Below, in pieces: positions 18,001 to 35,657 of a DNA stretch of 64,000 bases. Below the pieces are notes generated by a model that was not told where the DNA came from, searched no databases, and saw only the letters and a program-made list of their open reading frames with translations. Source of the stretch: an uncultured Gemmatimonadota bacterium (GTDB lineage: Bacteria > JAAXHH01); assembly GCA_951812955.1 (NCBI GenBank), contig OX638340.1, positions 2,976,001-3,040,000 of the forward strand, in the 5' to 3' direction. Both the position numbers and the translations under genes were made by a program. Numbering within the stretch: position 1 is the first letter of the stretch; each line of letters begins with the position of its first letter.

Positions 18001-21000
18001 CAAAGCCTGACCATTTCGATCCGCTCGAATGTCGGCATGCCCACCGAACCGGCGTAAGCGCGGTTCGCCAGGCCGGCAGCGCCTTCGGCCGTTTCTACAT
18101 CCGCACCGTCCTGGCGGTCCATGCCGTCCAACGACGGGTCCACACCGGCCGTCGCACCGAGGATTTCGGTGTCCAGCGGTATGCGGTACATGCGCCAGCT
18201 GTCCGGATTGCCCCAGTTGGAGCGATCCAGGTCGCCGCCGGCTACGAGCACCGTGTCATCGTGGTCCGGACTCAGATTCACGGCGAATTCGAAATAGTCG
18301 TTTTGTAAGTCCAGAAAGCCGGAGTAATCGAGATCTTCGGTATCGGGCCGACGGTTCTGATCCGGATCGTTGGCATTCACTTCCGGTCCGTTGATTTTGC
18401 TGTAGTCGACCTGGTCGACCGGCACGGAGCCACCCTTCGTACCTTTGAAGTGGAAGTTGTCCCCGTGTGGATCGGGGTTGCTCACCGGATCGTAACCGGC
18501 CTCCTCTTCGTCCCTCAGACCGTCCATCCCGATGTCTTCTTCCGGTTCCAGGAGGTTGTTGCCGAATCCGCCACTCCGGTCGTCTTCCGTATCCAGACTG
18601 TCGTTACCGTTGACATCCTCGCTGATTGCCCCGAGGTCGATATGCAGTTCGCCGCGATTCCCGTTCACCCATATCTCGATGAACCGGCTGCGCGTCTGGT
18701 CCACGTTGGCCCCGGAGAGCGGATGCATCAACCCGGCCCACCTGTTCAGCACGTCGCCCTGGCCGTTTTCCCGGCCGGGCGCGCTGAAGGTCGAGTCCGC
18801 AGACAAGCCGCCCCAGCGAAGGTCGGGTTCCGTGGGATCGTATTCCATGATCAGCACGTGCTGCAACTGGTCGCGGCCCGTGACCTCGCGGGTGGGGTAA
18901 ATCTGGCGGACATCGACCTGTTCGAGGGGATTGTACCAGATCATCCGGCCCCGCTGTTGGTGTTCGTATCGATCGGGTGGGCTGGCCGGCCGCCAGCCGC
19001 TCCGGCGCACGCCCAGGTCTGTTTCCTCCTTGCTTCCTTCGAAATCGTCGATAAACCCGTCGCCCAGGATATTGGGGTTGGGAACGCTCTGAGCCAGTTC
19101 GGCCTCGATGATCAACGAGGACGATTCGTCCGCCAGGTCCGCGGGGGAGATGAAATCCACGAAGGAAGTCAGAAAGTCAGGTTCGAACGCCAGCCGCGTA
19201 TCGATCCCCCACATCATGTACCGTCCGGTTTCACGGCCGATCCGGGACTTCTGCTCCAGGGACTTGTCGGACCGGTATAGAAATGTGCCTTTAATCCAGG
19301 ACTGTTCGCTGAACTGGTATTCACCCTGAAATCCCATCAGGGTGTTCGACACAGGCTTGAAGAACGGGGCAAACTGGAACTGGACGGTCACGTCCGCATC
19401 CGGGGTCAGAGCCTCCTCGTTCGTGAAACGGATCTGCCCGACTTCGTAGAGAATGATGTAATCGGTTCCCCGCTGCAGTTGCTGGCCGTTCAATCGCACG
19501 ATTTCACTCCCCTCGATGATATTGGTCCGCCCGAGGGAGTACTGGGACAACTGGTTACGGTATTCGACTTCAAGGAAGTACTTGTTCAGCCTGCTGTGCT
19601 GGCTGAAGATCTGTTCGCTCGAAAGATTATAGAACCCGGGCGTTTCATCGGGAAGGCCTTCGCCCTGCGTATTCGGATAGGCCAGTTGGCCGGCGGATGT
19701 TACGGTCAGGGCGGGCGCGAAGGGATACTGGTCCGGGAAAATCAGTTCCCCGCGTTCGAAATTGAACAACGCATAGTCGATGTCGACGATCCGGTCGGGC
19801 TCGGAACCGGGGTCCACCCCCCTCCGGTCGAGCCCCAGCAACTGGATGAAGGGCGTCCCGTTCTCGTCGACCTCACTGTGCTCGCCCTCGGACTGCAACT
19901 GGTAGATTCTCAATTCGAAATTGTTCGGATCGATGTCCGTCTGGCCGAGGTAATACACATTCCGCCACTCGTACTGCCAGGTGTCCCACTGGGCGGGATC
20001 GTCCGGGGCGGCGGGAGGGCGCTCCTGCTGCCGCTTGAGCAGGCGCAGCAGCGGGACGTCGCCTTCCAGTCGGCCGTACTTTTTGACTTCTCCGTTCTGG
20101 TTCACGGTCTCGTAGTATACTCCGAGCATGTCGTCTTCTTGCAAGGGCGTGTTCAACGCGATGTAGCCGAATTGCTGGTTTACGTAGAATTCGTCGGATT
20201 CCAGGTACCTGAACTTCCCTTCCACGAATTCACCCGCCTCGGAACCCTGGATGAGCACATCCTCCGAGTCGTACACGGGGGGATCCGGATAGGCATTGGC
20301 ATTGACCAGCTTGGCCTGGTTGGTCAGGGTGAGCCGTCCCGACACGTAGACCTGGATGACACGCACCGAGTCATCGGGCGCGACGCGGGACCCGTTTACG
20401 TCCCTGCGCGAGAAATCGCGGCGGTACTGCTCATCAATGAAATAGTAGGTCCTGCGCCTGAAGTCGAGGTCCCGGATCACCCGCTGAGACCCTTTGGTCC
20501 CGGCCTGGAACGTGGCGGATTCTCCTTCTCCCTTCTCCTGGCTGGCGATCGCGGTCAGGTGGAAGCTGCCGAGTTGGCCCGTCATTTTGACTCCAAACAA
20601 TCCGGTGTGCTGCTGCGTATAGCCCGTGAACTCCGTGTTCTTCAGATCGAGAGAAACGTTTCCAGCCTCGAAACTCTTCAGGATGCCGTTCCCATCCCGG
20701 CCGTCGTCGTAAACGTCCTGGTACCGAATGGCAAGGTTGTTGTCGAGGTCGGTGAACGCTTCGCTGTTCTGCTTGATGTTCACCTCGACCTTCTGGCCTA
20801 TGTTCCCGGAAACGGTAAACTCCTGGTTCTGCTTCATGGAAATGTTCGGTGCGCGAGAGAACCGGTTTGTCGCCGTACTCGCGCTGCCTTCCGTCCATTC
20901 GCTGGCCATGTCCATCTCGATGCGCTGGTTTCCGAGAATACGAATAACGGGCGTGCCGCCGCCCAGAAAAGTAGGCAGGTTCACCGGCAGATCGAGGGTC

Positions 21001-21401
21001 AGAAGGCCTTCCTGGCTCAGTCGGGTTTCGGTGTCGAAGACGTAGGACAGCACGGACGTTCGCCACAGTTTTTTGAATTGAGCCGCACTGCGAAGTCGGT
21101 AATATTGGTCAAAAGAGAGGACCAGGGGCACGCGGCGGCCAAGCCCCCGTTCTGCGTCTATGAAAGCCAGTAGCAGGAGGTCGGGATAGACGACGGTCCG
21201 GCCGCCCAAAGGCAACGGCCGGTCGGAGAGGGTACGCAGTGCCGGTCTGTTTTGCCCGCGGGCGATTTCGTCGACCTCATCGAAAGCAACGACGTGCAGG
21301 CGTGCGCTTTCGAGCCGGATCGCCGGGCCTTCCGCCAGTGCGGAGAAGGTCCACAGGGATATCAGCACGTGGCTGAAGACAATCGGACAAATGCGTTTCA
21401 T
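15099..21401 (-). CDS. giant (2100 aa) secreted/outer-membrane protein, SprA-like (type IX secretion translocon / cell-surface protein SprA family) candidate
   Basis: Signal peptide MKRICPIVFSHVLISLWTFSALA; 2100 aa with beta-rich composition throughout. Size, architecture and lineage context resemble SprA of FCB-group bacteria. Assignment is by recollection, not alignment. Confidence 0.4.
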   Translation of the reverse strand: MKRICPIVFSHVLISLWTFSALAEGPAIRLESARLHVVAFDEVDEIARGQNRPALRTLSDRPLPLGGRTVVYPDLLLLAFIDAERGLGRRVPLVLSFDQYYRLRSAAQFKKLWRTSVLSYVFDTETRLSQEGLLTLDLPVNLPTFLGGGTPVIRILGNQRIEMDMASEWTEGSASTATNRFSRAPNISMKQNQEFTVSGNIGQKVEVNIKQNSEAFTDLDNNLAIRYQDVYDDGRDGNGILKSFEAGNVSLDLKNTEFTGYTQQHTGLFGVKMTGQLGSFHLTAIASQEKGEGESATFQAGTKGSQRVIRDLDFRRRTYYFIDEQYRRDFSRRDVNGSRVAPDDSVRVIQVYVSGRLTLTNQAKLVNANAYPDPPVYDSEDVLIQGSEAGEFVEGKFRYLESDEFYVNQQFGYIALNTPLQEDDMLGVYYETVNQNGEVKKYGRLEGDVPLLRLLKRQQERPPAAPDDPAQWDTWQYEWRNVYYLGQTDIDPNNFELRIYQLQSEGEHSEVDENGTPFIQLLGLDRRGVDPGSEPDRIVDIDYALFNFERGELIFPDQYPFAPALTVTSAGQLAYPNTQGEGLPDETPGFYNLSSEQIFSQHSRLNKYFLEVEYRNQLSQYSLGRTNIIEGSEIVRLNGQQLQRGTDYIILYEVGQIRFTNEEALTPDADVTVQFQFAPFFKPVSNTLMGFQGEYQFSEQSWIKGTFLYRSDKSLEQKSRIGRETGRYMMWGIDTRLAFEPDFLTSFVDFISPADLADESSSLIIEAELAQSVPNPNILGDGFIDDFEGSKEETDLGVRRSGWRPASPPDRYEHQQRGRMIWYNPLEQVDVRQIYPTREVTGRDQLQHVLIMEYDPTEPDLRWGGLSADSTFSAPGRENGQGDVLNRWAGLMHPLSGANVDQTRSRFIEIWVNGNRGELHIDLGAISEDVNGNDSLDTEDDRSGGFGNNLLEPEEDIGMDGLRDEEEAGYDPVSNPDPHGDNFHFKGTKGGSVPVDQVDYSKINGPEVNANDPDQNRRPDTEDLDYSGFLDLQNDYFEFAVNLSPDHDDTVLVAGGDLDRSNWGNPDSWRMYRIPLDTEILGATAGVDPSLDGMDRQDGADVETAEGAAGLANRAYAGSVGMPTFERIEMVRLWITEVDEPVKTRIASINIVGNQWQEDFTGAITDSTGNPVPASALSAAGETFDVAVKNTYDNPGEYTSPPGAIIEYDRVTGLQNKEQSLIITYTNLQPHHSAQAYRTLFSDQDYTLYNTLRLYIHGSDNFEPGRSPEFFIRFGSGEFDYYEYRTRVLPGWDEANHLRVVFDDLTVLKSETETARRTVTTTDTTYAVTLSDGISRPVRFKDGPRNEGLTLAIVELEGNRQYRVLGSPALARVRHITVGIYNPYDQVLVGGELWLDELRAGDVRRDRGLAGRLKFDADLADVLSVFGTVRSVGSHFRRIGGEESGSRSTLINFSSLLNLGNMLPEDWGLSIPLRLRWKNDLRLPRLQVGSDIVLLNQEQREAQRTENNDRSFSASFSKRIGSRNPFVAWTLERFRFDFTSTSYFRHSVSRIDTSGSYRARLHYNLTPRSKIQWPILRWMPLPESISGLTFNPLPVRLELFSEVNRDRRIYLNRARQSVVAGNTGETEAASTDRGERFIRYLNRNIRAIMEPFGSLRMNYNLAVSNDMKSDSTVSFTKLEFGPETSYRQNLGVDYRPGITTWFRPSYNFTTSYAENRNPQLQLVGASPSARTITFSNQQGVRTNVNLARMVSNVLGESSRRSSPEDAGWFRRNVSDRLAAVLSNFTPVTLNYTISRNQNFFNAVSRPTLRERMGLSDSFSVLFDTLGSGGGVTGIQRNQESEANRSSFNLGTGIRLRGATLSIRPTWVSTHNRSSNLNRKQNNTTWPEVNLRWSPNLRSMGDFGRSFRRIELSSGYSRRKGKNTDLGQVAPAVAQGSAGDTDPGEAGITRTTTTSLSPLIGFVFDLNAGVVIRGNFTTLDGLTEFGRNATDQKQQNRSLTVAVDYRLRSGIRIFGKRTSGDINARLQYTRNTNETLISRIAGDFQPSNGQNQNRFSVTTDYRFSRYIRGGVTLEFTNTLNVITRQKRIRRGGGLWTEFVFN

Positions 21402-21975
21402 AGATTAACGAAAATAAACCGGGGGAGCGACACTCGCAACACCTGATCATACGTTGGAAGGACGCCCGGCGGGTACCTCGCGTTCCATGGCGGGAACCCG
21501 GAGGTAAAAGACTTGACAGGGACCGGAGCCGGGATTAGGGTACACGGGAACCGCTCGGAATCCGATTTCAATAAAGAACCCCGGAGTTCGCTTCCCATGG
21601 AACAGCAAACCGCCGAATTGACCACGGGTGGATGGGTCTTTCTCGTGATCGCATGGACCGTGATCACAGGGTTGACCGCCGCTTGTTTTCTCCGGGTAAG
21701 AAAGCTGAAATAGGATTCTGCCCCCGCCAGGTTGTCCTGGGGTCTCCCGTTTCGTCTTCCAGTCCGCCTCCCTCTCCGCCTTAAATCGCTGCCGATCCTC
21801 CGGCGTCGATTACCAGCCGTCAGCCCCGAACCACGTGCTTCGAACAACGCGTCATCCCGTCCCGAACGCGGCATGCCGTCCCATTCTAAATGCGCGCCCT
21901 GCTTGACATTTGGGCGTTTTTGCCGTATCCTGTAACGGTTTTCCCGACTTGGAATGATGCCTGCAAAGGACAGCC

Positions 21976-22233
21976 ATGCGGATCATCGTCAAATGTTTCG
22001 CCGGGTGCAGAGACGCGGTAGGCTCGACATCGGTCTCCGTGGAGTTCCCGGACGGCACCACCGTGGGCGAGGCCTTTGCGGAGCTCATTGATTCATATCC
22101 CGCACTGGCGAGTTATGACCGGAGCGTGATGCTGGCCGTGAACCGCGATTACGCCGACCGGCAGGTCGTGCTCGCGGATGGCGACGAACTGGCGTGCATT
22201 CCGCCTGTGAGCGGCGGCGCTACACGGCGTTGA
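21976..22233 (+). CDS. moaD: MoaD/ThiS-family sulfur-carrier protein with 4-residue extension after the Gly-Gly
   Basis: 85 aa beta-grasp; ends ...IPPVSGG-ATRR; adjacent to moaE. Confidence 0.65.
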   Translation: MRIIVKCFAGCRDAVGSTSVSVEFPDGTTVGEAFAELIDSYPALASYDRSVMLAVNRDYADRQVVLADGDELACIPPVSGGATRR

Positions 22234-22317
22234 CGCGGATCAGCAGAGGCTGATTCAGTCACCGGCGTTTACGCGGTTCAGCGGCGGCAGTCTTCGATAA
22301 AGGACGAAATCAGGCCC

Positions 22318-22731
22318 GTGTACAAGATCATTGACGAATACATCAAGCCGGATGCCCTCTTCGAGTGGTCCCTCAAGCCCCATCACGGCGCAGTAGTCAC
22401 CTTCGCCGGTACCGTGCGGGACAATACGGATGGCCGGCGGACGCTGCGGCTGGAATACGAGGCCTATGCCGAGATGGCCGAAGCCAAGATGCGGGAAGTG
22501 GGCGCGGAAATCCGCGAAAGATGGGGTATTGAAGACGTCGCCATGATTCATCGGGTCGGCACACTCGAAATCGGGGAGATCAGCATCCTGATCTCCGTGG
22601 CGTCCCCTCACCGCAAGAACGCATTCGAGGCCTGTTCCTACGCGATCGACCGCGTCAAGCAGATCGTGCCCGTCTGGAAGAAGGAAATCTGGGCAGACGG
22701 GGAGCGGGAATGGGTGGAACGTAATACCTGA
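22318..22731 (+). CDS. moaE: molybdopterin synthase catalytic subunit MoaE
   Basis: 137 aa; conserved MoaE segments (GAVVTFAGTVRD..., ISVASPHRKNAFEACSYAIDRVKQIVPVWKKE). Confidence 0.8.
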   Translation: MYKIIDEYIKPDALFEWSLKPHHGAVVTFAGTVRDNTDGRRTLRLEYEAYAEMAEAKMREVGAEIRERWGIEDVAMIHRVGTLEIGEISILISVASPHRKNAFEACSYAIDRVKQIVPVWKKEIWADGEREWVERNT

Positions 22732-22746
22732 AATCCGGTCCCTGTC

Positions 22747-23898
22747 ATGATAAACCTAGACCACGGCGCGGCGCCGCCGGTTGACTCCCGTGTCATCGAA
22801 GAGATGGCGCCCTGCCTCCGCGAATACACCGGCAATCCTTCAAGCCTTCACCAGGCGGGTGCGCTTGCGCGCAACGTACTGGAACTGGCACGCGGCCGGG
22901 TCTCGGCACTGATCGGTGCCGATCCCGGCGAGATCGTATTCACCGCAAACGGAACGGAAGCGGACAACCTGGCCGTCAAGGGCCTGGCCCAGGCGAGAGC
23001 GAATCACGGGCGGCACATCGTCATTTCCAGTATCGAGCATCATGCCGTGCTGTATGCCGCGAAGGCGATGGAACGACAGGGATTCACGGTCACCCAGGTT
23101 CCGGCGGACGGGGACGGCATCGTGCCGCCCGACGGGATTGCGCGGGCCATGCGGGACGACACCATCCTCGTCTCCGTTACGCTCGCTAACGACGAAACAG
23201 GTACGATACAGCCCGTGCGCGAAATCGCCGAGATCGCCCACGGCAACGGTGCGGTCATCCATTCCGATGCCGTGGCCGCGATGGGGCGCCTGCCTGTAGA
23301 TGTTCACGATTTAGAGGTCGATGCCTTGTCCATTTCCGCCCGACCCCTGAACGGCCCGCCCGGCGCCGGCGCCCTCTATGTGAAGGAGGGTACCCGGCTT
23401 CGTCCCCAGGTGGAAGGGGGCGTGCAGGAAGACGGCCGCCGCGGCGGACATGAGAACATCCCCGCAATCGTGGGTTTCGGCAGGGCGGCGGAACTGGCGG
23501 CGGTGGAGTTGCCGGCCCGGATCGACCGATTGAAGCGGCTGGATGCATCGATGTTTCTTGGCCTGAAGGACCGCCTGCCGGATGTCTCCATCAATGGGCA
23601 CGAGACCCTGCGTCTGCCCGGGCACCTGAACCTGTGGATACCGGAGGTCGACGGGGAATCCCTGGTCCTGATGCTCGACGCCCGGGGGATTGCCGCTTCC
23701 GTTGGATCCTCCTGCACCGCCCAGGTGTCCAAGCCGTCCCACGTGCTTCTGGCCCTGGGACGGACGGCGGCCGAAGCCCGCTGCTCGCTGCTGCTCACCG
23801 CCGGTCCGGACACGGCCGAAGGCGAGGTCGGCGAGGCACTTGACGCCCTGACCGAGGTCGTGGGAGCGTTGCGGGCCATCGCGGGTGTGAGCGCATGA
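22747..23898 (+). CDS. class-V aminotransferase / cysteine desulfurase homolog (IscS/NifS family) lacking the canonical PLP lysine
   Basis: Fold-typical motifs (GNPSSLH, catalytic-loop GSSCTA). The expected S-x-S-x-H-K-x-x-G-P-K-G region reads SISARPLNGPPGAG, with Lys replaced by Pro. Confidence 0.6.
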   Translation: MINLDHGAAPPVDSRVIEEMAPCLREYTGNPSSLHQAGALARNVLELARGRVSALIGADPGEIVFTANGTEADNLAVKGLAQARANHGRHIVISSIEHHAVLYAAKAMERQGFTVTQVPADGDGIVPPDGIARAMRDDTILVSVTLANDETGTIQPVREIAEIAHGNGAVIHSDAVAAMGRLPVDVHDLEVDALSISARPLNGPPGAGALYVKEGTRLRPQVEGGVQEDGRRGGHENIPAIVGFGRAAELAAVELPARIDRLKRLDASMFLGLKDRLPDVSINGHETLRLPGHLNLWIPEVDGESLVLMLDARGIAASVGSSCTAQVSKPSHVLLALGRTAAEARCSLLLTAGPDTAEGEVGEALDALTEVVGALRAIAGVSA

Positions 23899-24128
23899 TG
23901 AGGCCGGCAATGACCCTGGATACATTCGGCCTGCTCTGTCCCGTGCCGATCATGAAAACCGCGTCGGCCATCCGGGAGATCTCCGTGGGCGAAGTCCTGG
24001 AAGTGCTGGCAGACGATCCCCAGATCCTGGAGGACATGCCGGCCTGGTGCGCGAGTAATGGACACGCGCTGCTCGACACCATAGAGGAAAACGAGGAATT
24101 CAAACTATACGTGCGAAAGGTAAAGTGA
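23895..24128 (+). CDS. tusA: TusA-family sulfurtransferase
   Basis: 77 aa with LCPVP (CPxP) motif; 4-nt overlap with upstream desulfurase homolog. Confidence 0.8.
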   Translation: MMRPAMTLDTFGLLCPVPIMKTASAIREISVGEVLEVLADDPQILEDMPAWCASNGHALLDTIEENEEFKLYVRKVK

Positions 24129-24232
24129 TTGCTCTGGCGTATCGCCGGATGTAGATTGCGCATCGAGATTCAGTTCGCGCGAAAGAATTTAGTAGGAACG
24201 AAACGCCGATATGCCACCGGTAGGAGAAAAAG

Positions 24233-25318
24233 ATGGCCCATGAAGTGACCATGCGGGACGTGGTGGACCGACTGAAGCAGATCATGTACCCGGGATTCGA
24301 CCGCGACATCGTCTCCTTCGGCCTGGTTAAGAACGTACAGGCCTCCGGCGGCCACGTGGCCTTCAGCCTGGCCTTTTCCACGCAGGACGAAGCTTTGCGG
24401 CGTCAGATCACCATGACGGCGAAAGAAGCGGTGGAGCGCATTCCCGGTGTGCACGACGTGCAGATCACCGGTCCGCCGCCGGGACAATCGGCCACGGCAC
24501 AGGGCCCCGCGGCGGGGCAATCGGGACAGCCCGGACAGCCCGGGCAGCCCGGCAAGATCGAACTGCCCGGCGTAAAGACCATCGTGGCAGTGGCCAGCGG
24601 CAAGGGCGGCGTGGGCAAATCCACGGTCTCGGTGAACCTGTCGGTGGCCCTGGCCGACGCCGGCGCGAGCGTGGGCTTGCTCGATGCAGATATTTACGGC
24701 CCCAGCATACCGACGATGATGGGCGTCAAGGACCAGCCCGGGGTGGTCGGTCAGAAAATCCTGCCCATGATCGCCCACGACATAAAGATGATGTCCTTCG
24801 GCTTCCTGATCCCGGAGGACCAGTCGGTCACCTGGCGCGGACCCATGGTCCACCAGGCCGTGCAGCAACTGCTGCGCGACGTCCTGTGGGGAGAACTGGA
24901 CTGCCTCGTCATCGACATGCCGCCGGGCACGGGAGACGCGCACCTTACGCTTACCCAGTCCGTGCCACTGACCGGCGGTCTGGTAGTAACGACGCCGCAG
25001 GACGTGGCCCTCATCGACGCGCGGCGCGGCGTGGCCATGTTCCAGCAGGTCAACGTACCCATACTCGGCATCATCGAAAACATGAGCTATTTCAAATGTC
25101 CCCACTGCGGCGACCGTACGGATATCTTCACGACGGGCGGAGGGAGAAAGGCCAGCGAAGCGCTGGGCGTGCCCTTCGTCGGCGAATTGCCCATCGATCC
25201 GGCGGTCTGCCTGGCGGGCGACCAGGGTACCCCCATCGTCCGGAGGGAACCGGACTCGCAGCAGACGGATGCCTTCCGCCAGGTGGCGGACACGTTGCGG
25301 CAATCGATCGGGGTATAA
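24233..25318 (+). CDS. apbC: Mrp/ApbC/NBP35-family Fe-S cluster carrier ATPase with N-terminal MIP18/DUF59 domain
   Basis: P-loop VASGKGGVGKST, CPHCG Fe-S ligand motif, DUF59-like N-terminus; GQSGQPGQPGQPG linker insertion. Confidence 0.85.
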   Translation: MAHEVTMRDVVDRLKQIMYPGFDRDIVSFGLVKNVQASGGHVAFSLAFSTQDEALRRQITMTAKEAVERIPGVHDVQITGPPPGQSATAQGPAAGQSGQPGQPGQPGKIELPGVKTIVAVASGKGGVGKSTVSVNLSVALADAGASVGLLDADIYGPSIPTMMGVKDQPGVVGQKILPMIAHDIKMMSFGFLIPEDQSVTWRGPMVHQAVQQLLRDVLWGELDCLVIDMPPGTGDAHLTLTQSVPLTGGLVVTTPQDVALIDARRGVAMFQQVNVPILGIIENMSYFKCPHCGDRTDIFTTGGGRKASEALGVPFVGELPIDPAVCLAGDQGTPIVRREPDSQQTDAFRQVADTLRQSIGV

Positions 25319-25332
25319 AGGGGAAAGCGACC

Positions 25333-26373
25333 ATGTCCAAATCCGTGAAAGCAGTCGGACTGCTGTCCGGCGGCCTGGACAGTACGATCGCGGCCGCCAT
25401 GCTGATGCGCCAGGGCATCGAAGTCCAGGGACTCACGTTCTACACCGGTTTCTGCGTGGTGGAACACAATCGAAGGTCCAAGACGCGGAAGCGCAAGAAA
25501 CCGGTGCGCAACGAGGCCCTGCAGGCCGGCGCCAAACTGGACTTGCCCGTGGAGATGATCGACATATCGGGACCGGACTACCTCAAGGTACTCACTGATC
25601 CCAAATACGGATACGGCTCGGCCGTGAACCCGTGTATCGACTGCCGCATTTTCATGTTCCGGCGTGCCCGTCAGTACATGGACGAGATCGGCGCCCAGTT
25701 CATGTTTACCGGCGAGGTCCTCGGACAGCGGCCCATGTCACAGCGCCGCCAGCCCATGAATGTCATCGACCGGGACGCGGAGCTGGACGGCCTGCTGCTG
25801 CGGCCGCTTTCCGCCAAGAAGCTGCCGCCCACGGTGCCGGAAGAGAAGGGGTGGGTCGACCGGGAGCAACTGGGCGACATCCAGGGCCGTTCCAGGCAGC
25901 AACAGATGGAGCTGGCCGAGGAGTACGGCATCGAGGACTATCCATCCCCCGCGGGTGGATGCTGCTTTCTGACCGACAAGAACTTCGGCCGGCGCATCCT
26001 CGACTTCTTCGAACACGAGGGCAAAGAGAACCTGACCATGGACGACGTGATGCTGCTCAAGATCGGCCGCCACTTCCGCGTCAAGCCCGACGTGAAGGTG
26101 GTGATGGGCAGGGAAGAAGGGGAGAACAAGTTCCTCGAACGCTACACGCCCGGCCGGTGGAGACTGGAGACGAAGGACGTCACGGGTCCGACCACCCTCG
26201 TCGAGGGCCATCCTACCGACGACGACCTCCGGCGGATCGCCGGCATGACCGTACGGTACGCGGGGTCGAAGGCCGATCCCGGCGCCACAGTGGCCTGCCG
26301 CTACGAAGATTCCGAGCGCACCCTCGAGCCGTCCCCGGTGGAAGAGTCTGTTGTGGAGGAATGGCGGATATAG
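25333..26373 (+). CDS. PP-loop ATP pyrophosphatase, MnmA-like tRNA 2-thiouridylase candidate
   Basis: SGGLDS PP-loop at N-terminus and NPCIDC segment resembling the MnmA catalytic PNPDxxCN region; 347 aa; lies in the sulfur-relay neighbourhood. Confidence 0.5.
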   Translation: MSKSVKAVGLLSGGLDSTIAAAMLMRQGIEVQGLTFYTGFCVVEHNRRSKTRKRKKPVRNEALQAGAKLDLPVEMIDISGPDYLKVLTDPKYGYGSAVNPCIDCRIFMFRRARQYMDEIGAQFMFTGEVLGQRPMSQRRQPMNVIDRDAELDGLLLRPLSAKKLPPTVPEEKGWVDREQLGDIQGRSRQQQMELAEEYGIEDYPSPAGGCCFLTDKNFGRRILDFFEHEGKENLTMDDVMLLKIGRHFRVKPDVKVVMGREEGENKFLERYTPGRWRLETKDVTGPTTLVEGHPTDDDLRRIAGMTVRYAGSKADPGATVACRYEDSERTLEPSPVEESVVEEWRI

Positions 26374-26569
26374 GGTATAACGAATTGCCGGCCTGAGAAG
26401 TCATCAGCGTGCAAATCGACCATAAAACCCACTTGCCTGACAGCTCTAAAGCCGGATAACCGGTTTTTGTTCGCTAGATTGTGAATACCAATCTCGACTG
26501 AAATAAGTAGCTATATTGAGGCTACAAGGAGATCGTTCATTGTGAATGCTGTTACAGTGAAGAATCTCC

Positions 26570-26612
26570 TCTTGTTCGCTATTGACAAGTGATTATTGTC
26601 ACTTTACATTCT
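26570..26612 (+). promoter_or_regulatory. sigma70-like promoter with palindromic operator upstream of higBA
   Basis: TTGACA (26582-26587) with TATTGT/TACATT -10 candidates; perfect inverted repeat AAGTGA-ttattg-TCACTT at 26587-26604 overlaps the promoter. Confidence 0.45.
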
Positions 26613-26614
26613 GA

Positions 26615-26893
26615 ATGGTACGCAGCTTCCGACATCGTGGACTCAGACGCCTCTACAAGCGCGGCGATGCCAGCCTCATTCGTACCGACCTGCGCGAAAG
26701 AGTCGAAGTGATGCTGGCACAACTCGAAGTGGCAGGTACCGTGAACGCTATGCGCCTGCCTCGATACCGGTTACACGCTCTCAAAGGAGATCTTAAAGGC
26801 TACTGGTCGGTCACCGTGAAGGCCAACTGGCGCATCACCTTCCGCTTCGAGCACGGGGATGTCTACGACGTAGATTTGACTGATTACCACTGA
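26615..26893 (+). CDS. higB: HigB toxin (RelE/ParE superfamily mRNA interferase)
   Basis: 92 aa; N-terminal RSFRHRGLRRLYK matches the HigB 'plasmid maintenance system killer' signature; followed by HTH antitoxin. Confidence 0.75.
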   Translation: MVRSFRHRGLRRLYKRGDASLIRTDLRERVEVMLAQLEVAGTVNAMRLPRYRLHALKGDLKGYWSVTVKANWRITFRFEHGDVYDVDLTDYH

Positions 26894-26910
26894 AGAAAGT
26901 AGGACTGAAA

Positions 26911-27204
26911 ATGCCCATGAAGAACCCGCCACATCCCGGTAAGGTGGTACGCGTGTCGTGCCTGGAACCGCTCAACCTCAGCGTGACCGATGGCGCGAAG
27001 GTGTTGGGCGTCAGCCGTCAGGCGCTATCGAATCTGGTGAATTGCCATTCGCGGATTTCCGGCGACATGGCGGTCCGGCTGGCAAAGGCCTTCGGCTCGA
27101 CCACGGAGACCTGGATACGTCTTCAGGCGGCTTACGACATCGCCCAGGCACAGGACCGAGAGGATCAGATCGAGGTTGAGCGTTACGTTCCACATGCGGT
27201 CTGA
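26911..27204 (+). CDS. higA: HigA antitoxin (XRE-family HTH)
   Basis: 97 aa; HTH segment DGAKVLGVSRQALSNLVN; toxin-first HigBA order. Confidence 0.75.
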   Translation: MPMKNPPHPGKVVRVSCLEPLNLSVTDGAKVLGVSRQALSNLVNCHSRISGDMAVRLAKAFGSTTETWIRLQAAYDIAQAQDREDQIEVERYVPHAV

Positions 27205-27890: not shown

Positions 27891-28688
27891 CTAAGGCGGC
27901 GCATTGGAAGTTTTTGGATTCAATTCGCCGGTTCGAACGCTCATCAGATTCGCCGCGTTATCCTCCAGAAGAGCCTTGGCTGCGTCGTCCGAAAGATCGT
28001 TGACCACCCGCGCCACGGCCGCAGACGGCATGAAAACCGGGGCGTGGGAACCGAATAGCAACTTGCCCCCGAGTCCCGCGTCCACAAGCATCTTCACACT
28101 GTCCACTCCGTCCACCTGGGATGTATCCGCGTAAAAACCGGGTAGTTCGCGTAGCTCCTCCTTGAAGTCCCTCAGGACGGTCACGCTCGCCCCTCCGATA
28201 ACAAGCTTCAGTTCGGGGTGGCGCTTCGCCCCTTCCACCACGTCTCGTGCCGGTACGTCGGGAACCATGGCCAATGGGTGATGGCGTCTCGGGTCATCGA
28301 TCCGAACCTGGACCATCACGACCAGGCACGCTCGTCGCGCTTCTTCGAGCAAATCATCCGTCGCGGCTAAGCCATACCCGCCGTAACCAGGCAGCAGCTT
28401 GATCATACGGACGGCATGATGTACGGCAGCCTTTTCCAACTCCTCCGGCCAGGTGGGCAGCGTCGGGTCGATGACCGGCACGGGCCTGACGTCATCAAAC
28501 TTTTTTACCGCTTCGTAAACCTCCGAGTTAGATAGATGTGGATTGGCACTCCACGCGGCTGCCAGCGGGGCCATGAATATGCGTTCGACCCCCAGATTCC
28601 GTAGCGATGCACGTACCGACGCCACATCGTGCGGTACGTTGACCAGCGCCGGCCATGGCCCAGCCCAGGCGTTGACGTCGATGATCAT
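27891..28688 (-). CDS. amidohydrolase-2 (TIM-barrel metal-dependent hydrolase) family protein
   Basis: Likely start MIIDVNAW (28688); the listed ORF extends to 28784. Amidohydrolase_2-like. Confidence 0.5.
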   Translation of the reverse strand: MIIDVNAWAGPWPALVNVPHDVASVRASLRNLGVERIFMAPLAAAWSANPHLSNSEVYEAVKKFDDVRPVPVIDPTLPTWPEELEKAAVHHAVRMIKLLPGYGGYGLAATDDLLEEARRACLVVMVQVRIDDPRRHHPLAMVPDVPARDVVEGAKRHPELKLVIGGASVTVLRDFKEELRELPGFYADTSQVDGVDSVKMLVDAGLGGKLLFGSHAPVFMPSAAVARVVNDLSDDAAKALLEDNAANLMSVRTGELNPKTSNAPP

Positions 28689-29563
28689 GAATCGCTCCCG
28701 GGTTCCTGCCCCTCTATCTCTCTGTCGCCGGGCCTGGTCCCTGGTCTCCCGTCCAACTTCAAGACCCGCAACGCATTGTCCCACAGGATCGCCCGTTTTG
28801 CCGTATCCGGTATATCCGCCCCAAGGACCTTGTTCATCGTGACGCCGAAGTGCCGGATAGGCGCGTCCGAACCATAGACGACCCGGTCTGCGCCCAGGCG
28901 CTGGACGGCCATTTCGACCATGCCGCTTTCCGGATCGCCGCCCGAGGTATCCACGACCACGTTGGGTACGTCGACCACCGCCTCGATGCCCCGGTAGCCC
29001 ACGCCGTTGAGATGGGCCATGATAATCCTTGCCCGGGGGTGGCGGAGGGCAAGGTCGGCCACGTCGAAGGGCGTCGATTCACCGGGCAGGTTGCCCGTGG
29101 TTTTCAGCCAGGCGTGTTGCAGCACCGGTACGTCCAGCGCGATGGCCGACTCCATGATCGGATCGAGGCCGGGATCGGTTACACGACGCGCCACCCATAG
29201 TTTCACGCCGGCCATGTCCTGGCCGCCGACGCATCGCTCGATTTCGGCGACGGCTTCGTCGGGGAAAGCCGGGGTAACGTAGCAGAACGGCAGGATCGCA
29301 TCCGGCTCGGCGTCTCGCATCCGAAGCACGTAGTCGTTCGCCAACCGGCACTGTTCGGACGTGGGCTTATACGGGGTGGTCTCGTACAACGAAAACACGC
29401 ACATCCGGGTAACTCCGGAGCGCCTTGCCGTGGCAATCAGTTGCTCGGCGTCCGAGGTTGCAGAGGATACCCCGTAGGAGCCGAAACAGTTCAGGGGGTG
29501 TACATGGATATCCAGCGCTGGTCCGTCCGGCAGAAGCCTTTTGCGCATGGAAGCAAGGGTCAT
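28685..29563 (-). CDS. amidohydrolase-2 family protein
   Basis: LDIHVHP... metal-binding HxH start, conserved D near C-terminus (GSDAP); 4-nt overlap with downstream paralog. Confidence 0.55.
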   Translation of the reverse strand: MTLASMRKRLLPDGPALDIHVHPLNCFGSYGVSSATSDAEQLIATARRSGVTRMCVFSLYETTPYKPTSEQCRLANDYVLRMRDAEPDAILPFCYVTPAFPDEAVAEIERCVGGQDMAGVKLWVARRVTDPGLDPIMESAIALDVPVLQHAWLKTTGNLPGESTPFDVADLALRHPRARIIMAHLNGVGYRGIEAVVDVPNVVVDTSGGDPESGMVEMAVQRLGADRVVYGSDAPIRHFGVTMNKVLGADIPDTAKRAILWDNALRVLKLDGRPGTRPGDREIEGQEPGSDS

Positions 29564-29663
29564 GGCTTTGGAGCAGCTAGTTACATTGCGTGACGGGGCC
29601 GTGTTGCTGCTGCGGAACTACAGAAATCAGAAGGAGACCGTCACAGCCGACGGCAGGAAACCG

Positions 29664-30545
29664 TTACAGCCGGTAGAATGCGATGGCGTTGTCCCGGAAG
29701 AGCATCCTGCGTTCCGCGTCCGAGAGTCCGCTGGTCGCCCAGGACAGGGTCTCTACCCACCGGGGATAGTCGGTAGCCTGGAAGGCGACGGGCCAGTCCC
29801 CGCCGTACATGACGCGGTCGATGCCGAAACATTCGATCACGTGATCGATGTAGGGTTTCAGGTCTTCGGACGTCCACCGTTCCATGTCAGCTTCGGTGAC
29901 CAGTCCCGACACTTTGCAGCAGACATTGGGCATTTCCGCCAGGGTCTTCATCTCGTCCTTCCACGGGTCGAACACCTGGTTCCTGATATCGGGCTTGCCG
30001 ATATGGTCCAGGATGAAGGAGACTTCGGGGCACTGCCGGACAAATTCGATCGCATTCGCCAACTGTGGATGGAAGATGCAGATATCGAAGGATAGCCCGT
30101 GGGACGGAAGCAGGCGGACGCCTTCGATAAAATCGGGCTGGAGGCAGAATTCAACGGATTCGGGTTGCAGCAGTCGCCGTATGCCCTTGACCAGCGGAAT
30201 TCGGGCCAGGGTTTCGAGATCTTCATCGACCGGCGCACCCCGCTCAAGCTGTGCGTTGGCCACGATCCCGCGAATCCGGCCGTCCTCTCGGGCCAATCCG
30301 GAAACCCACTCCGCTTCCTGAACGTGTTGACCGGCGTCGCATTCGCATTGCACGAAGACCATCTGCTCCACGTGGACTTCCCCGCAGGCCTTCCGGTATT
30401 CATCCAGCAGGTACCGCTGGTTCAGCAGGGGGATATCGTCCAGCCAGCTGTACCGCAGGTGACTCGGGTCCCAGAGATGTACGTGGGTGTCGACGATGGG
30501 GTAGTCCAACATGGTAAAGTCCTCTGTTGCGGCCTGTTCAGGCAT
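29664..30545 (-). CDS. amidohydrolase-2 family protein (LigI / 2-pyrone-4,6-dicarboxylate-lactonase-like)
   Basis: IVDTHVHLWD N-terminal metal motif, LDHIGKP, GGDWP C-terminal motif. Confidence 0.6.
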   Translation of the reverse strand: MPEQAATEDFTMLDYPIVDTHVHLWDPSHLRYSWLDDIPLLNQRYLLDEYRKACGEVHVEQMVFVQCECDAGQHVQEAEWVSGLAREDGRIRGIVANAQLERGAPVDEDLETLARIPLVKGIRRLLQPESVEFCLQPDFIEGVRLLPSHGLSFDICIFHPQLANAIEFVRQCPEVSFILDHIGKPDIRNQVFDPWKDEMKTLAEMPNVCCKVSGLVTEADMERWTSEDLKPYIDHVIECFGIDRVMYGGDWPVAFQATDYPRWVETLSWATSGLSDAERRMLFRDNAIAFYRL

Positions 30546-33777: not shown

Positions 33778-34088
33778 GATCCGTCTCCTGGAGTAAATGA
33801 CCTTGGGGAATTTGCTCCCGATTTTCGGGTAGGAAAGGGTAAGGGCATGCTAAATCACCGGGCAAGGCGTGTCAATACAATTCGCCGGTGCCGGAGGCCT
33901 GAGAATGCGTTGCATTGCGGCTGGTCCCGCTCTATCTTCAATCAGAGCGGTATGGCGCGTTCTGTCAGAGGGACTATGCCGCGTTCGACCGAATGTCTTC
34001 GGACCACGAAAAAAACAGCCCCACCGATCGGATCGCATGATATTCGTGCATAACGCCATTTGAGAAAGTTTATGATGTCAGGGACGAT

Positions 34089-34427: not shown

Positions 34428-34487
34428 CTTCAGGGGAACCGCGAGCGAGTTCATCGGATACCAAACCTTGAAACACCCTTTAAACCT

Positions 34488-35582: not shown

Positions 35583-35657
35583 ATGCTCGATCGGAAGAAC
35601 ACGGGCTGACAAGGCAGCAATCGATTACACTAGTCGGACTAAAAGAGCGGGCTGTTC

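What the first reader, a model, noticed from the sequence alone, without database searches (positions are those of the whole stretch)
21976..26373. Sulfur-relay neighbourhood with two atypical members: MoaD with post-GG extension and a Lys-less cysteine desulfurase homolog
Six co-directional, tightly spaced genes encode MoaD-like, MoaE, an IscS/NifS-fold protein, TusA (4-nt overlap), an ApbC/Mrp Fe-S carrier with DUF59 domain, and an MnmA-like PP-loop ATPase. Two features are unusual. First, the MoaD-like carrier ends ...SGG-ATRR, so the Gly-Gly needed for thiocarboxylation is not C-terminal and would need proteolytic trimming, as in CysO/QbsE-type carriers processed by JAMM proteases. No JAMM gene is in the window. 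Second, the desulfurase homolog keeps the catalytic-loop Cys (GSSCTA) but has SISARPLNGPPGAG where the PLP-binding His-Lys should be (K to P), which should abolish internal aldimine formation. This could be a pseudoenzyme or scaffold partner (TusA-docking) or a desulfurase using a non-canonical Lys. The combination hints at a non-standard persulfide or thiocarboxylate relay feeding Moco, Fe-S and tRNA thiolation.
Basis: partly seen in the sequence, partly recalled or inferred. Interest (0 to 1): 0.55.

Follow-up and report, generated by a model that had tools for sequence, protein, structure and literature searches.

The report
Dead desulfurase–TusA sulfur relay cluster
A conserved six-gene sulfur-handling cluster in marine Gemmatimonadota-like bacteria contains a cysteine-desulfurase look-alike that has lost its cofactor lysine and four or five other catalytic residues but keeps its sulfur-carrying cysteine. 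It always sits near the sulfur carrier TusA, and the cluster's MoaD carrier always has a disposable tail after its Gly-Gly end. Both oddities are real and conserved, and each has a known precedent.

Summary
Both observations are confirmed and neither is an error. The six + strand genes are MoaD-like, MoaE, IscS/NifS-like, TusA, Mrp/ApbC, and a PP-loop ATPase. The last is a ThiI-type enzyme fused to an NFACT-R_2 RNA-binding domain, not MnmA.

The order is identical in 20 related MAG genomes and in three relatives with different flanks (IscS* 53-60% identical). Every orthologous MoaD (>=57% identity) has a post-GG tail of 1-46 residues with no conserved sequence. More distant MoaDs mostly end at GG. 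This fits a pro-form trimmed by an unlinked protease, as shown for Deinococcus MoaD-MoaE.

The desulfurase homolog lacks K206 and also N155, Q183, H205, T243 and the substrate-binding R354. It keeps the loop Cys and is under purifying selection (dN/dS 0.22). Its best structural match is the inactive, Lys-less Archaeoglobus fulgidus IscS. It belongs to a broad Lys-less clade.

In an independent sample of 80 metagenome loci, TusA lies within 2 kb of 7/15 Lys-less homologs and 0/65 canonical ones (p = 2e-6).

Best reading: a non-catalytic, Cys-only IscS-type adaptor working with TusA, serving Moco, Fe-S and tRNA thiolation. This is a new variant of a known kind. Interest is moderate.

The parts
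21903..21931 (+). Sigma-70-like promoter match (TTGACA-17-TATCCT), 45 nt upstream of the moaD-like start
   Evidence: The number of such sites in the region is not above the shuffled expectation, so only its position is suggestive.
21976..22233 (+). MoaD/ThiS-family sulfur carrier (85 aa). Gly-Gly is at residues 80-81 (ends at nt 22218). A 4-residue tail ATRR (22219-22230) follows, then TGA.
   Evidence: PF02597 at 9.6e-15. TIGR01687 (MoaD_arch) scores 50.5 bits, above its cut-off of 49.5. TIGR01682 scores 60.6 bits, below its cut-off of 66.15. Tails of 1-46 aa with no conserved sequence occur in all orthologs. dN/dS is 0.15.
22318..22731 (+). MoaE, molybdopterin synthase catalytic subunit (137 aa, GTG start)
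   Evidence: PF02391 at 1.9e-41. It follows MoaD in all 24 clusters examined. MoaE is in frame with MoaD in only 8 of 21 loci, about what chance gives, so there is no fusion or read-through.
22747..23898 (+). IscS*: Lys-less IscS/NifS(MisS)-fold protein (383 aa). R199-P200 (nt 23341-23346) replace the His-Lys pair. The loop Cys323 (nt 23713-23715) is kept.
   Evidence: PF00266 at 4e-64. All NCBIfam desulfurase models score below their cut-offs. In E. coli numbering the changes are N155D, Q183A, H205R, K206P, T243H and R354L, while T76, H104, D180, S203 and C328 are kept. dN/dS is 0.225. The AF2 model has pLDDT 91.3. The top PDB fold match is A. fulgidus IscS 4hvk, TM 0.92-0.95.
23895..24128 (+). 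TusA sulfur carrier (77 aa) with the CPxP cysteine (Cys15). Its start overlaps the IscS* stop by 4 nt.
   Evidence: PF01206 at 1.3e-23. TusA follows IscS* in every type A cluster. It is also found within about 1.1 kb of Lys-less homologs in the other lineages sampled.
24233..25318 (+). Mrp/ApbC Fe-S carrier ATPase (361 aa) with an N-terminal DUF59/FeS_assembly_P domain, a low-complexity GQP linker, and a CPHC motif
   Evidence: PF10609 at 4e-103 and PF01883 at 7e-11. NF008669 (ApbC) scores 318.9 bits against a cut-off of 348. dN/dS is 0.09.
25333..26373 (+). ThiI-type PP-loop ATPase fused to the NFACT-R_2 RNA-binding domain (346 aa): predicted tRNA thiouridine synthase
   Evidence: PF02568, PF03054 and PF18297. 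SGGLDS is invariant, as are five Cys: C42, the CxxC pair C102/C105, and the adjacent pair C211/C212 (numbered in the translation from nt 25330, one higher than in the 346-aa protein). This was measured across 116 homologs. dN/dS is 0.064. The family is described in PMC4075521.

Best explanation
**What it is.** The locus is a conserved, TusA-centred sulfur-trafficking cluster in a Gemmatimonadota/'Latescibacterota'-labelled marine lineage.

**The desulfurase homolog (IscS*).** It is a folded, selected, catalytically dead derivative of a MisS/IscS-type cysteine desulfurase. Its sequence predicts that it cannot form the PLP aldimine or bind the cysteine substrate. It retains the mobile-loop cysteine. 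It most likely acts as a Cys-only adaptor that exchanges persulfide sulfur with its neighbour TusA, or that offers a cluster or persulfide ligand, as A. fulgidus IscS does for IscU.

**The proposed flow.** Sulfur on TusA/IscS* is passed in two directions:
- (i) To MoaD, which must first lose its post-GG tail to an unlinked protease and be adenylated by an unlinked MoeB-type E1. It then works with MoaE to make molybdopterin.
- (ii) To the ThiI+NFACT-R PP-loop enzyme for tRNA thiolation. The adjacent Mrp/ApbC probably supplies that enzyme's likely [4Fe-4S] cluster.

**Shown here.**
- Gene identities.
- Loss of six canonical active-site residues.
- Conservation of the cluster and of the tail.
- Purifying selection.
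- The statistical coupling of Lys-less IscS with TusA.

**Inferred.**
- The direction of sulfur flow.
- The original sulfur source (a canonical desulfurase elsewhere, or an inorganic/persulfide pool).
- Tail cleavage.
- The Fe-S dependence of the thiolase.
For: **Cluster conservation.** The six-gene order is identical in 20 species-level genomes. It is also identical in L023, L027 and L028, where IscS* is 53-60% identical and the flanks differ.

**Active-site loss.** Type A homologs (n = 72) show N155D, Q183A, H205R, K206[S/P/T], T243H and R354L. C328, D180 and H104 stay invariant.

**Coupled loss.**
- In a similarity-ranked sample of relatives, 48 of 49 Lys-less proteins also lack R354, while 148 of 149 Lys-containing ones keep it.
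- In the metagenome sample, 13 of 15 Lys-less proteins lack K206, R354, Q183 and H205 together.

**Selection.** dN/dS is 0.225 for IscS*, against 0.06-0.15 for its neighbours.

**Fold.** The AF2 model has pLDDT 91.3. Its best PDB match is A. fulgidus IscS 4hvk, at TM 0.92-0.95 and rmsd 1.5 A. By sequence, the E-value to 4eb5 is 3e-94.

**Precedent.** A. fulgidus IscS lacks activity because of its K->D change and supplies a Cys ligand to the IscU cluster. M. acetivorans IscS1 is also Lys-less (PMC7585200).

**TusA coupling.**
- TusA lies within 2 kb of 7/15 Lys-less and 0/65 canonical homologs in an independent metagenome sample (Fisher p = 2e-6).
- With at least 1.5 kb of flank on both sides, the counts are 7/8 and 0/40 (p = 1e-7).
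- The Chloroflexi-type and Archaeoglobus-type Lys-less genes sit in IscS*-IscU-(DsrE2)-TusA clusters.

**The thiolase.**
- ThiI+NFACT-R is directly followed by TusA in Eisenbacteria and Acidobacteriota, and TusA lies about 200 nt downstream in TA06.
- The pairing was predicted to be an s4U pathway (PMC4075521).
- The thiolase has an invariant CxxC plus a CC pair. This resembles the three-Cys [4Fe-4S] site of archaeal TtuI-type enzymes (my knowledge, plus the abstract of PMC9825150 listed).

**The MoaD tail.** It is present in all orthologs and its sequence is unconserved. JAMM cleavage of a MoaD precursor by an unlinked gene is shown in D. radiodurans (PMC8832034).
Against: - There is no biochemical evidence for this protein.
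- T76, H104, D180 and S203 are kept. The replacements R205 and H243 could still contact a phosphate, so non-covalent binding of PLP or another ligand is not excluded.
- One Lys (query K329, at E. coli position E334) is specific to the Lys-less type A and B clades relative to 23 canonical relatives.
- No IscU is in the cluster, unlike the A. fulgidus paradigm.
- No canonical desulfurase, MoeB/ThiF, rhodanese or JAMM gene was found in the 64-kb window. The rest of the genome could not be searched.
- Spacing between IscS* and TusA, and between TusA and Mrp, varies from 0 to about 250 nt among relatives. The six genes may therefore be two or three transcription units.
- The TusA association test ignores phylogenetic non-independence.
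Confidence: 0.55

Rival explanations
1. IscS* is still an active cysteine desulfurase. It would hold PLP through a relocated lysine (for example K329, six residues after the loop Cys) or non-covalently.
For: K329 is conserved in 96% of type A and 94% of type B Lys-less proteins and in 0 of 23 canonical relatives. D180, H104, S203 and T76 are retained, and R205 and H243 could bind a phosphate.
Against: - The substrate-carboxylate Arg354 is Leu in 71 of 72 type A proteins. Both O3'-contacting residues (N155, Q183) are also lost.
- The closest solved relative with the same K and R losses (A. fulgidus IscS) is reported inactive.
- The canonical enzyme 9wep carries both K206 and the Lys at the 334 position, so that Lys is not a replacement for K206.
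- Archaeoglobus-type Lys-less proteins have Glu at that position.
Confidence: 0.08
2. IscS* is mainly an Fe-S assembly partner, the A. fulgidus model transplanted. Its loop Cys would ligate a nascent cluster built on Mrp/ApbC (standing in for IscU), with sulfur delivered by TusA. MoaD/MoaE and the thiolase would be neighbours that consume sulfur or clusters, not direct IscS* clients.
For: - In the Lys-less lineages sampled outside type A, IscS* is usually next to IscU.
- In type A clusters an Mrp with a DUF59 domain takes the place of IscU.
- The TA06 thiI-NFACT-R locus also carries IscU and DUF59 genes.
- In the A. fulgidus structure the IscS Cys is a [2Fe-2S] ligand.
Against: - The tightest and most constant junction in type A clusters is MoaE to IscS* (15-105 nt). 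TusA to Mrp has the longest gaps (66-260 nt).
- No interaction between Mrp and IscS-type proteins is documented in the literature I read.
Confidence: 0.22
3. IscS* is a decaying relic (a pseudogene in the making) that hitch-hikes in the cluster. The MoaD tail is neutral stop-codon drift with no processing requirement.
For: IscS* is the fastest-evolving gene of the six (dN/dS 0.225 against 0.06-0.15). Position 206 is freely variable (S/P/T/L/A). The tail sequence is unconserved.
Against: - The full-length ORF is intact in all 24 genomic loci examined and in about 75 database homologs down to 52% identity.
- dN/dS is well below 1.
- Many new clade-specific invariant residues have appeared (D149, R199, R219, E343 and others).
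- The Cys loop is invariant.
- The model is confidently folded.
- A tail left on MoaD would block adenylation and insertion into MoaE (established MoaD/MoaE mechanism), yet PPVSGG is invariant.
Confidence: 0.05
4. The tailed MoaD-like protein is primarily a ubiquitin-like protein modifier or tRNA-thiolation carrier (SAMP/TtuB-like) for the PP-loop enzyme, not only the Moco carrier.
For: It passes the archaeal MoaD/SAMP-type model TIGR01687 but not the bacterial moaD equivalog. It also hits the SAMP1 model at 1e-12. C-terminal pro-peptides are typical of conjugation-type Ubls. It lies in the same cluster as a thiolase.
Against: - It is always immediately followed by MoaE.
- In other phyla the ThiI+NFACT-R family is paired with TusA, not with a ThiS/MoaD protein.
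- No E1 gene is in the cluster.
Confidence: 0.1

Closest known systems
Archaeoglobus fulgidus IscS (IscS2, AF0564; PDB 4eb5/4eb7/4hvk) and M. acetivorans IscS1: Lys-less MisS/IscS proteins
   Same: - Same fold: TM 0.92-0.95, 42-43% identity.
- Same loss of the Schiff-base Lys, of Q183 and of the Arg354 equivalent (LLLT motif in both).
- The loop Cys is retained.
- An Archaeoglobus-type relative also has TusA and DsrE2 next to it.
   Different: - The present protein is bacterial and comes from a marine, probably sponge- or coral-associated lineage (inferred from MAG isolate names).
- It has R-P at the H-K position rather than N-D, plus T243H and N155D.
- It has no adjacent IscU.
- It is embedded between moaDE and tusA-mrp-thiI(NFACT-R).
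E. coli IscS-TusA sulfur relay (PDB 3lvj), feeding mnm5s2U and Moco
   Same: An IscS-fold protein sits next to TusA with its CPxP cysteine. R55 and an acidic residue at position 52 of the TusA-binding helix are conserved. TusA is known to influence Moco synthesis in E. coli (my knowledge of Dahl et al. 2013, not checked here).
   Different: E. coli IscS is an active PLP enzyme that loads TusA. Here the IscS-like partner cannot desulfurate cysteine by the canonical mechanism, so either the direction or the origin of the sulfur must differ.
ThiI+DUF814(NFACT-R)/TusA predicted tRNA 4-thiouridylation pathway (Burroughs & Aravind 2014, PMC4075521)
   Same: Same two-domain PP-loop enzyme with a conserved CxxC and an internal Cys. 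Same association with TusA. An IscS-like gene is sometimes present in such neighbourhoods.
   Different: That paper assumed the IscS-like partner is an active desulfurase. Here it is Lys-less. Mrp/ApbC and MoaD-MoaE are additional conserved members.
JAMM/MPN+-matured sulfur-carrier precursors (D. radiodurans MoaD-MoaE fusion cleaved by DR0402; M. tuberculosis MoaX; QbsE/QbsD)
   Same: A MoaD-type beta-grasp carrier whose Gly-Gly is followed by extra residues that must be removed before adenylation. The protease gene can be unlinked.
   Different: The extension is a short, hypervariable peptide (1-46 aa) rather than a fused MoaE or a fixed dipeptide. No JAMM gene lies within +-10 kb in any relative. 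The protease is unidentified.

Membership tests
Type I cysteine desulfurase (IscS/NifS, Aminotran_5) | Class V aminotransferase fold with the mobile Cys loop | tested here: met
   PF00266 at 4e-64. AF2 pLDDT is 91.3, and Foldseek TM is 0.90-0.96 to IscS/NFS1/NifS structures. GSSC is conserved.
Type I cysteine desulfurase (IscS/NifS, Aminotran_5) | PLP Schiff-base lysine (E. coli K206) preceded by His205 | tested here: not met
   R199-P200 align with H205-K206. All 72 type A homologs have S/P/T/L/A at that position, while 23 of 23 canonical relatives have HK.
Type I cysteine desulfurase (IscS/NifS, Aminotran_5) | Substrate and PLP contacts N155, Q183, T243 and R354 | tested here: not met
   The query has D, A, H and L at these positions. 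Canonical relatives are invariant N, Q, T and R. All NCBIfam desulfurase models score below their curated cut-offs.
Type I cysteine desulfurase (IscS/NifS, Aminotran_5) | Cysteine desulfurase activity | not testable with these tools
   Needs the purified protein.
Lys-less MisS/IscS pseudo-desulfurases (A. fulgidus IscS type) | Loss of the Schiff-base Lys with retention of the loop Cys | tested here: met
   On a neighbour-joining tree the query falls in an all-Lys-less clade of 40 sampled sequences.
Lys-less MisS/IscS pseudo-desulfurases (A. fulgidus IscS type) | Adjacent IscU scaffold partner | tested here: not met
   No NifU_N gene is in the window cluster or in L023, L027 or L028. IscU is present next to the Chloroflexi-type and Archaeoglobus-type members.
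Lys-less MisS/IscS pseudo-desulfurases (A. fulgidus IscS type) | PLP-free, inactive protein that ligates a cluster through its Cys | not testable with these tools
   Known only for A. fulgidus.
MoaD (molybdopterin synthase small subunit) | ThiS/MoaD beta-grasp domain, encoded next to MoaE | tested here: met
   PF02597 at 9.6e-15. TIGR01687 scores 50.5 against a cut-off of 49.5. MoaE lies 84 nt downstream. The adjacency is conserved in all relatives.
MoaD (molybdopterin synthase small subunit) | Gly-Gly at the very C-terminus | tested here: not met
   The GG is followed by ATRR. All orthologs carry 1-46 extra residues. The bacterial equivalog TIGR01682 scores 60.6, below its cut-off of 66.15.
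JAMM-processed sulfur-carrier or Ubl precursors | Residues beyond the GG that require removal | tested here: met
JAMM-processed sulfur-carrier or Ubl precursors | A JAMM/MPN+ protease in the genome, often linked | tested here: inconclusive
   No ExnHxHx7Sx2D-type motif occurs in genuine ORFs of the 64-kb window, or within +-10 kb in 20 relatives. An unlinked precedent exists.
ThiI+NFACT-R / TusA predicted s4U pathway | PP-loop SGGxDS, CxxC plus internal Cys, and a C-terminal NFACT-R_2 domain | tested here: met
   PF02568 and PF18297. S13-G-G-L-D-S18, C42, C102, C105, C211 and C212 are invariant in 116 homologs (numbering from nt 25330).
ThiI+NFACT-R / TusA predicted s4U pathway | TusA in the neighbourhood | tested here: met
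   TusA is 1.2 kb upstream in the same cluster. In other phyla it follows directly or within about 200 nt.
ThiI+NFACT-R / TusA predicted s4U pathway | Absence of a THUMP-type ThiI from the genome; s4U formation | not testable with these tools
   Needs the whole genome and tRNA analysis.
Mrp/ApbC/NBP35 Fe-S carrier | Deviant P-loop NTPase with CxxC, and an N-terminal DUF59 | tested here: met
   PF10609 at 4e-103 and PF01883 at 7e-11. The sequence contains GKGGVGKS and CPHC. The ApbC equivalog scores 318.9, below its cut-off of 348.

The most novel reading that the evidence does not exclude
Lys-less IscS/MisS proteins may form a widespread cysteine-independent sulfur-entry module across bacteria (Gemmatimonadota-type, Chloroflexi, Nitrospirae) and archaea (Archaeoglobi, Odinarchaeota). 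In this module TusA, often with DsrE2, loads the IscS* loop cysteine with persulfide sulfur. This reverses the E. coli direction. IscS* then hands the sulfur to IscU, Mrp, MoaD or thiolases. In the Gemmatimonadota-type lineage the module would have been rewired from IscU to MoaDE, Mrp and ThiI-NFACT-R.
Probability: 0.25. Interest if true: 0.75.

Novelty: new variant of a known kind. Interest (0 to 1): 0.5.

Why it matters
How cells without an active cysteine desulfurase, or with 'dead' ones, obtain sulfur for Fe-S clusters, Moco and thio-tRNA is an open question for the minimal MIS/SMS systems.

This locus shows that the dead-desulfurase state is not an archaeal curiosity. It is a conserved, selected state in bacteria, and it is statistically tied to TusA (and often to DsrE2).

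That points to a concrete and testable donor for these proteins. It also gives a compact six-gene system in which Moco synthesis, Fe-S delivery and tRNA thiolation can be probed together.

The uniformly tailed MoaD adds a clean natural case for finding the bacterial protease that matures sulfur-carrier precursors.

Tried and rejected
- **Frameshift or sequencing error at the Lys codon: rejected.** The R-[P/S/T] motif is present in about 75 independent homologs, and the reading frame is continuous.
- **MoaD-MoaE read-through or decayed MoaX-type fusion: rejected.** MoaE is in the same frame as MoaD in the window, with a single TGA between them. However, only 8 of 21 loci share the frame, about what chance gives, and TGA is used as an ordinary stop.
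- **Moco riboswitch upstream of moaD: none found.** No Rfam match of any note lies in 21300-26700.
- **JAMM gene in the window or in the relatives' flanks: none.** Only spurious HxH hits in amidohydrolases turned up.
- **Second desulfurase, MoeB/ThiF, rhodanese, or moaA/B/C in the window: none**.
- **Exact-sequence lookup of the window's IscS*: not on record**, so the source genome itself could not be retrieved.
- **Co-variation of the E. coli IscS-TusA interface residues: not informative.** W45 and E49 are not conserved even among canonical relatives, and only R55 and D/E52 are general. The argument was dropped.
- **Literature search for a described link between Lys-less IscS and TusA/DsrE2: nothing found** in the open-access library. 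This does not prove absence.
- **Whole-genome questions were not answerable.** These are JAMM, a canonical SufS/IscS, IscU and THUMP-ThiI elsewhere in the genome.

Full report
**Observation check**

The region 21976-26373 holds six co-directional ORFs. Pfam and NCBIfam identify them:
- a ThiS/MoaD-family carrier (85 aa)
- MoaE (137 aa)
- an Aminotran_5 NifS/IscS-like protein (383 aa), here called IscS*
- TusA (77 aa), whose ATG overlaps the previous stop by 4 nt
- Mrp/ApbC, with an N-terminal FeS_assembly_P (DUF59) domain
- a PP-loop ATPase

The last gene is not MnmA proper. It is a ThiI-type PP-loop domain fused to an NFACT-R_2 RNA-binding domain (PF18297, 2.8e-21), and its true start is nt 25333.

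The DNA shows ...CCG CCT GTG AGC GGC GGC GCT ACA CGG CGT TGA, that is PPVSGG-ATRR-stop. The desulfurase homolog has CGA CCC (Arg-Pro) where canonical enzymes have His-Lys.

The flanks carry nothing related to sulfur, Moco or Fe-S. Upstream, on the opposite strand, is a 2100-aa SprA-like protein. Downstream is a HigB/HigA pair. No Moco riboswitch or other Rfam element lies in the region. A sigma-70-like hexamer pair sits 45 nt upstream of moaD, but the count of such sites is not above the shuffled expectation.

**Source lineage and cluster conservation**

The closest homologs of IscS* (74-94% identity) come from MAGs labelled Gemmatimonadetes/Gemmatimonadota. A scan of one genome per species returned 20 loci, from MAGs labelled Gemmatimonadetes or Candidatus Latescibacterota. 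Several have isolate names typical of sponge and coral studies.

All 20 carry the same six genes in the same order. These genomes are also syntenic further out, so this agreement alone says little. Three more distant contigs are more telling. In them IscS* is 53-60% identical and the flanking genes differ, yet they carry the same cluster (L023, L027, L028). It therefore behaves as a unit.

Pairwise dN/dS against the 20 loci is:

| Gene | dN/dS |
|---|---|
| MoaD | 0.15 |
| MoaE | 0.13 |
| IscS* | 0.225 |
| TusA | 0.10 |
| Mrp | 0.09 |
| PP-loop enzyme | 0.064 |

All six are under purifying selection. IscS* is the most relaxed.

**The MoaD tail**

In the window and all 20 loci, the invariant C-terminal motif DELACIPPVSGG is followed by 2-46 further residues before the stop. 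These residues have no conserved sequence beyond a preference for Ala or Gly at the first position. L023, L027 and L028 have tails of 15, 12 and 13 residues.

A database search gave the same picture:
- All 33 orthologs of at least 57% identity are tailed (1-38 aa).
- Most homologs of 54% identity or less end exactly at GG (81 aa).
- A few other lineages are tailed, including MoaD-MoaE fusions and one group with a conserved AQSRCES tail.

MoaE is in frame with MoaD in the window. This holds in only 8 of 21 loci, about what chance gives, so a read-through fusion is rejected.

An invariant GG followed by freely drifting sequence is what a removable pro-peptide would look like. Established MoaD chemistry requires a free Gly carboxylate, both for adenylation and thiocarboxylation and for insertion into MoaE.

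No JAMM motif is present in the window or within +-10 kb in any relative. That is not decisive. In D. radiodurans the JAMM protease DR0402 matures the MoaD-MoaE fusion DR2607 from an unlinked locus (PMC8832034).

**The Lys-less desulfurase homolog**

Aligned to E. coli IscS, type A proteins (n = 72) show:
- Changed: N155D, Q183A, H205R, K206 to S/P/T, K211P, T243H, R354L.
- Kept: T76, H104, D180, S203 and the loop Cys328.

The E. coli sequence was recalled from memory. All 17 residues I checked match published numbering. The 23 canonical relatives are invariant N, Q, H, K, T and R at the changed sites.

In a similarity-ranked sample of cluster representatives and nearer homologs, 49 of 198 proteins lack the Lys. 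Of these, 48 also lack R354, whereas 148 of 149 Lys-containing proteins keep it.

On a neighbour-joining tree, 40 Lys-less sequences form one exclusively Lys-less clade. It comprises the Gemmatimonadota-type sequences plus a Chloroflexi-type group with an N/S-Q motif. A separate six-member clade holds Archaeoglobus- and Odinarchaeota-type proteins.

The best solved-structure matches by sequence are a canonical enzyme (9wep) and A. fulgidus IscS (4eb5, E = 3e-94). Native A. fulgidus IscS has Asn-Asp at the His-Lys position and the same LLLT motif at the Arg354 position.

An AlphaFold2 model is confident, with pLDDT 91.3. It is low only in a loop at 221-240, in the Cys loop and at the C-terminus. 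Its top PDB fold match is 4hvk, the 'unusual' A. fulgidus IscS, at TM 0.92/0.95 and rmsd 1.5 A.

According to PMC7585200, A. fulgidus IscS lacks desulfurase activity because of the Lys substitution. It donates its Cys as a ligand to the [2Fe-2S] cluster on IscU. M. acetivorans IscS1 is likewise Lys-less.

The 'non-canonical Lys' reading is weak. The only clade-specific Lys is query K329, at the E. coli E334 position. The canonical 9wep has that Lys too, and Archaeoglobus-type Lys-less proteins lack it.

**Coupling to TusA**

Every Lys-less homolog whose context I retrieved had TusA close by:
- Type A clusters: MoaD-MoaE-IscS*-TusA-Mrp-ThiI/NFACT-R.
- Chloroflexi-type: (Rrf2)-IscS*-IscU-(Zn-ribbon-DsrE2)-TusA.
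- Archaeoglobus-type: TusA-DsrE2-IscS*-IscU.

To test this without my own selection, I fetched 80 metagenome loci using a family alignment. I classified each by its active-site residues. I then searched the flanks with HMMs built from the sequences already in hand.

| Sample | Lys-less with TusA within 2 kb | Canonical with TusA within 2 kb | Fisher p |
|---|---|---|---|
| All 80 loci | 7 of 15 | 0 of 65 | 2e-6 |
| At least 1.5 kb of flank on both sides | 7 of 8 | 0 of 40 | 1e-7 |

The test does not correct for shared ancestry, although at least four distinct Lys-less motif types contribute. I found no open-access paper describing this coupling.

**The thiolase and Mrp**

The ThiI+NFACT-R family is large and strongly conserved (50-56% identity across phyla). 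In Eisenbacteria and Acidobacteriota the gene is directly followed by TusA, and in TA06 TusA lies about 200 nt downstream. No IscS gene is present in any of the three. This matches Burroughs and Aravind (2014), who predicted a TusA-dependent tRNA 4-thiouridylation pathway and noted occasional IscS-like and IscU neighbours.

Across 116 homologs the PP-loop motif and five cysteines are invariant: C42, the CxxC pair C102/C105, and the adjacent pair C211/C212 (numbered from nt 25330, one higher than in the 346-aa protein). A CxxC plus a distal Cys is the ligand set of [4Fe-4S]-dependent thiolases. This is inference from the TtuA and TtuI literature, for example the PMC9825150 abstract listed. It would explain why an Mrp/ApbC carrier sits immediately upstream.

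**Mechanism proposed**

Shown here:
- IscS* is a folded, selected protein.
- It has lost the residues needed for PLP aldimine formation and for cysteine binding.
- It keeps the persulfide-carrying Cys.
- It is evolutionarily tied to TusA.
- The cluster travels as a unit with MoaD-MoaE, Mrp and the thiolase.
- MoaD is always made with a disposable tail.

Inferred:
- IscS* works as a Cys-only adaptor with TusA. It either receives persulfide sulfur from TusA or presents it to TusA and other clients. The primary source would be a canonical desulfurase elsewhere or a persulfide/inorganic pool, as the DsrE2 partners in other lineages suggest.
- Sulfur then reaches MoaD, after tail removal and adenylation by unlinked enzymes, for molybdopterin synthesis with MoaE.
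- Sulfur also reaches the ThiI-NFACT-R enzyme for tRNA thiolation, with Mrp providing that enzyme's cluster.

A close rival is that IscS* and Mrp form an Fe-S assembly pair analogous to A. fulgidus (IscS-IscU)2.

**Comparison, novelty, verdict**

Each element has a precedent:
- Lys-less IscS (A. fulgidus, M. acetivorans).
- Protease-matured MoaD precursors (D. radiodurans, M. tuberculosis MoaX).
- The TusA plus ThiI-NFACT-R pairing (predicted in 2014).

What appears new:
- A bacterial, IscU-less Lys-less IscS clade with its own replacement residues (R205, H243, D155).
- Its fixed embedding between moaDE and tusA-mrp-thiI.
- The general, statistically supported coupling of the Lys-less state to TusA.
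- The clade-wide hypervariable MoaD tail.

I classify this as a new variant of a known kind, with moderate interest (0.5). The main limits are the lack of whole-genome access and the absence of any biochemistry. Whole-genome access would be needed to look for JAMM, MoeB, a canonical desulfurase and IscU elsewhere.

Noticed in passing
window 15099-21401 (-): A 2100-aa ORF with a SprA_N domain (PF14349, 4.8e-18). It looks like a type IX secretion/gliding SprA-like outer-membrane protein, transcribed divergently from the cluster.
   Followed up: partly
window 26615-27204 (+): A HigB-like toxin (PF05015) and an HTH_3 antitoxin pair lie immediately downstream of the cluster, with a promoter-like site at 26582-26610.
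   Followed up: partly
window 34000-43200: A lower-GC stretch (0.53-0.56, against about 0.61 elsewhere) ends at a phage-integrase-family gene (42233-43192). No tRNA gene is found anywhere in the window. This may be a genomic island.
   Followed up: no
window 27891-30545 (-): Three consecutive Amidohydro_2 (PF04909) genes. The last one (HVHLWDP motif) is syntenic in nearly all related loci.
   Followed up: no
proteins P0391-P0405 (MoaD homologs, 88 aa): A separate MoaD lineage carries a conserved 7-residue post-GG tail, AQ[S/N]RCES, that includes a Cys. Unlike the hypervariable tails here, this one seems to be under selection.
   Followed up: no
window 23731-23733 (IscS* K329): There is a charge reversal at the hinge after the Cys loop. 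Canonical enzymes have Glu/Asp (E. coli E334). Lys is found in 96% of type A and 94% of type B Lys-less proteins and in 0 of 23 canonical relatives. It co-occurs with R354L.
   Followed up: partly
window 22183-22185 (MoaD Cys in ELACIPPVSGG): A Cys eight residues before the GG is conserved in all tailed orthologs. GG-terminal MoaDs mostly have Leu, Phe or Val there.
   Followed up: no
window about 24470-24560 (Mrp linker): A low-complexity Gly/Gln/Pro linker (GQSATAQGPAAGQSGQPGQPGQPG) joins the DUF59 and P-loop domains of Mrp.
   Followed up: no
L001-L020: Genomes whose IscS* proteins are each 76-92% identical to the window's are labelled variously 'Gemmatimonadetes', 'Candidatus Latescibacterota' or just 'bacterium'. 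The MAG taxonomy labels for this lineage are inconsistent.
   Followed up: no
L026 2052-2763, L029 8581-9277, L031 1315-1683: A small zinc-ribbon protein and a DsrE2-family protein recur between IscU and TusA in the Lys-less IscS clusters of Chloroflexi-type and Archaeoglobus-type lineages.
   Followed up: partly
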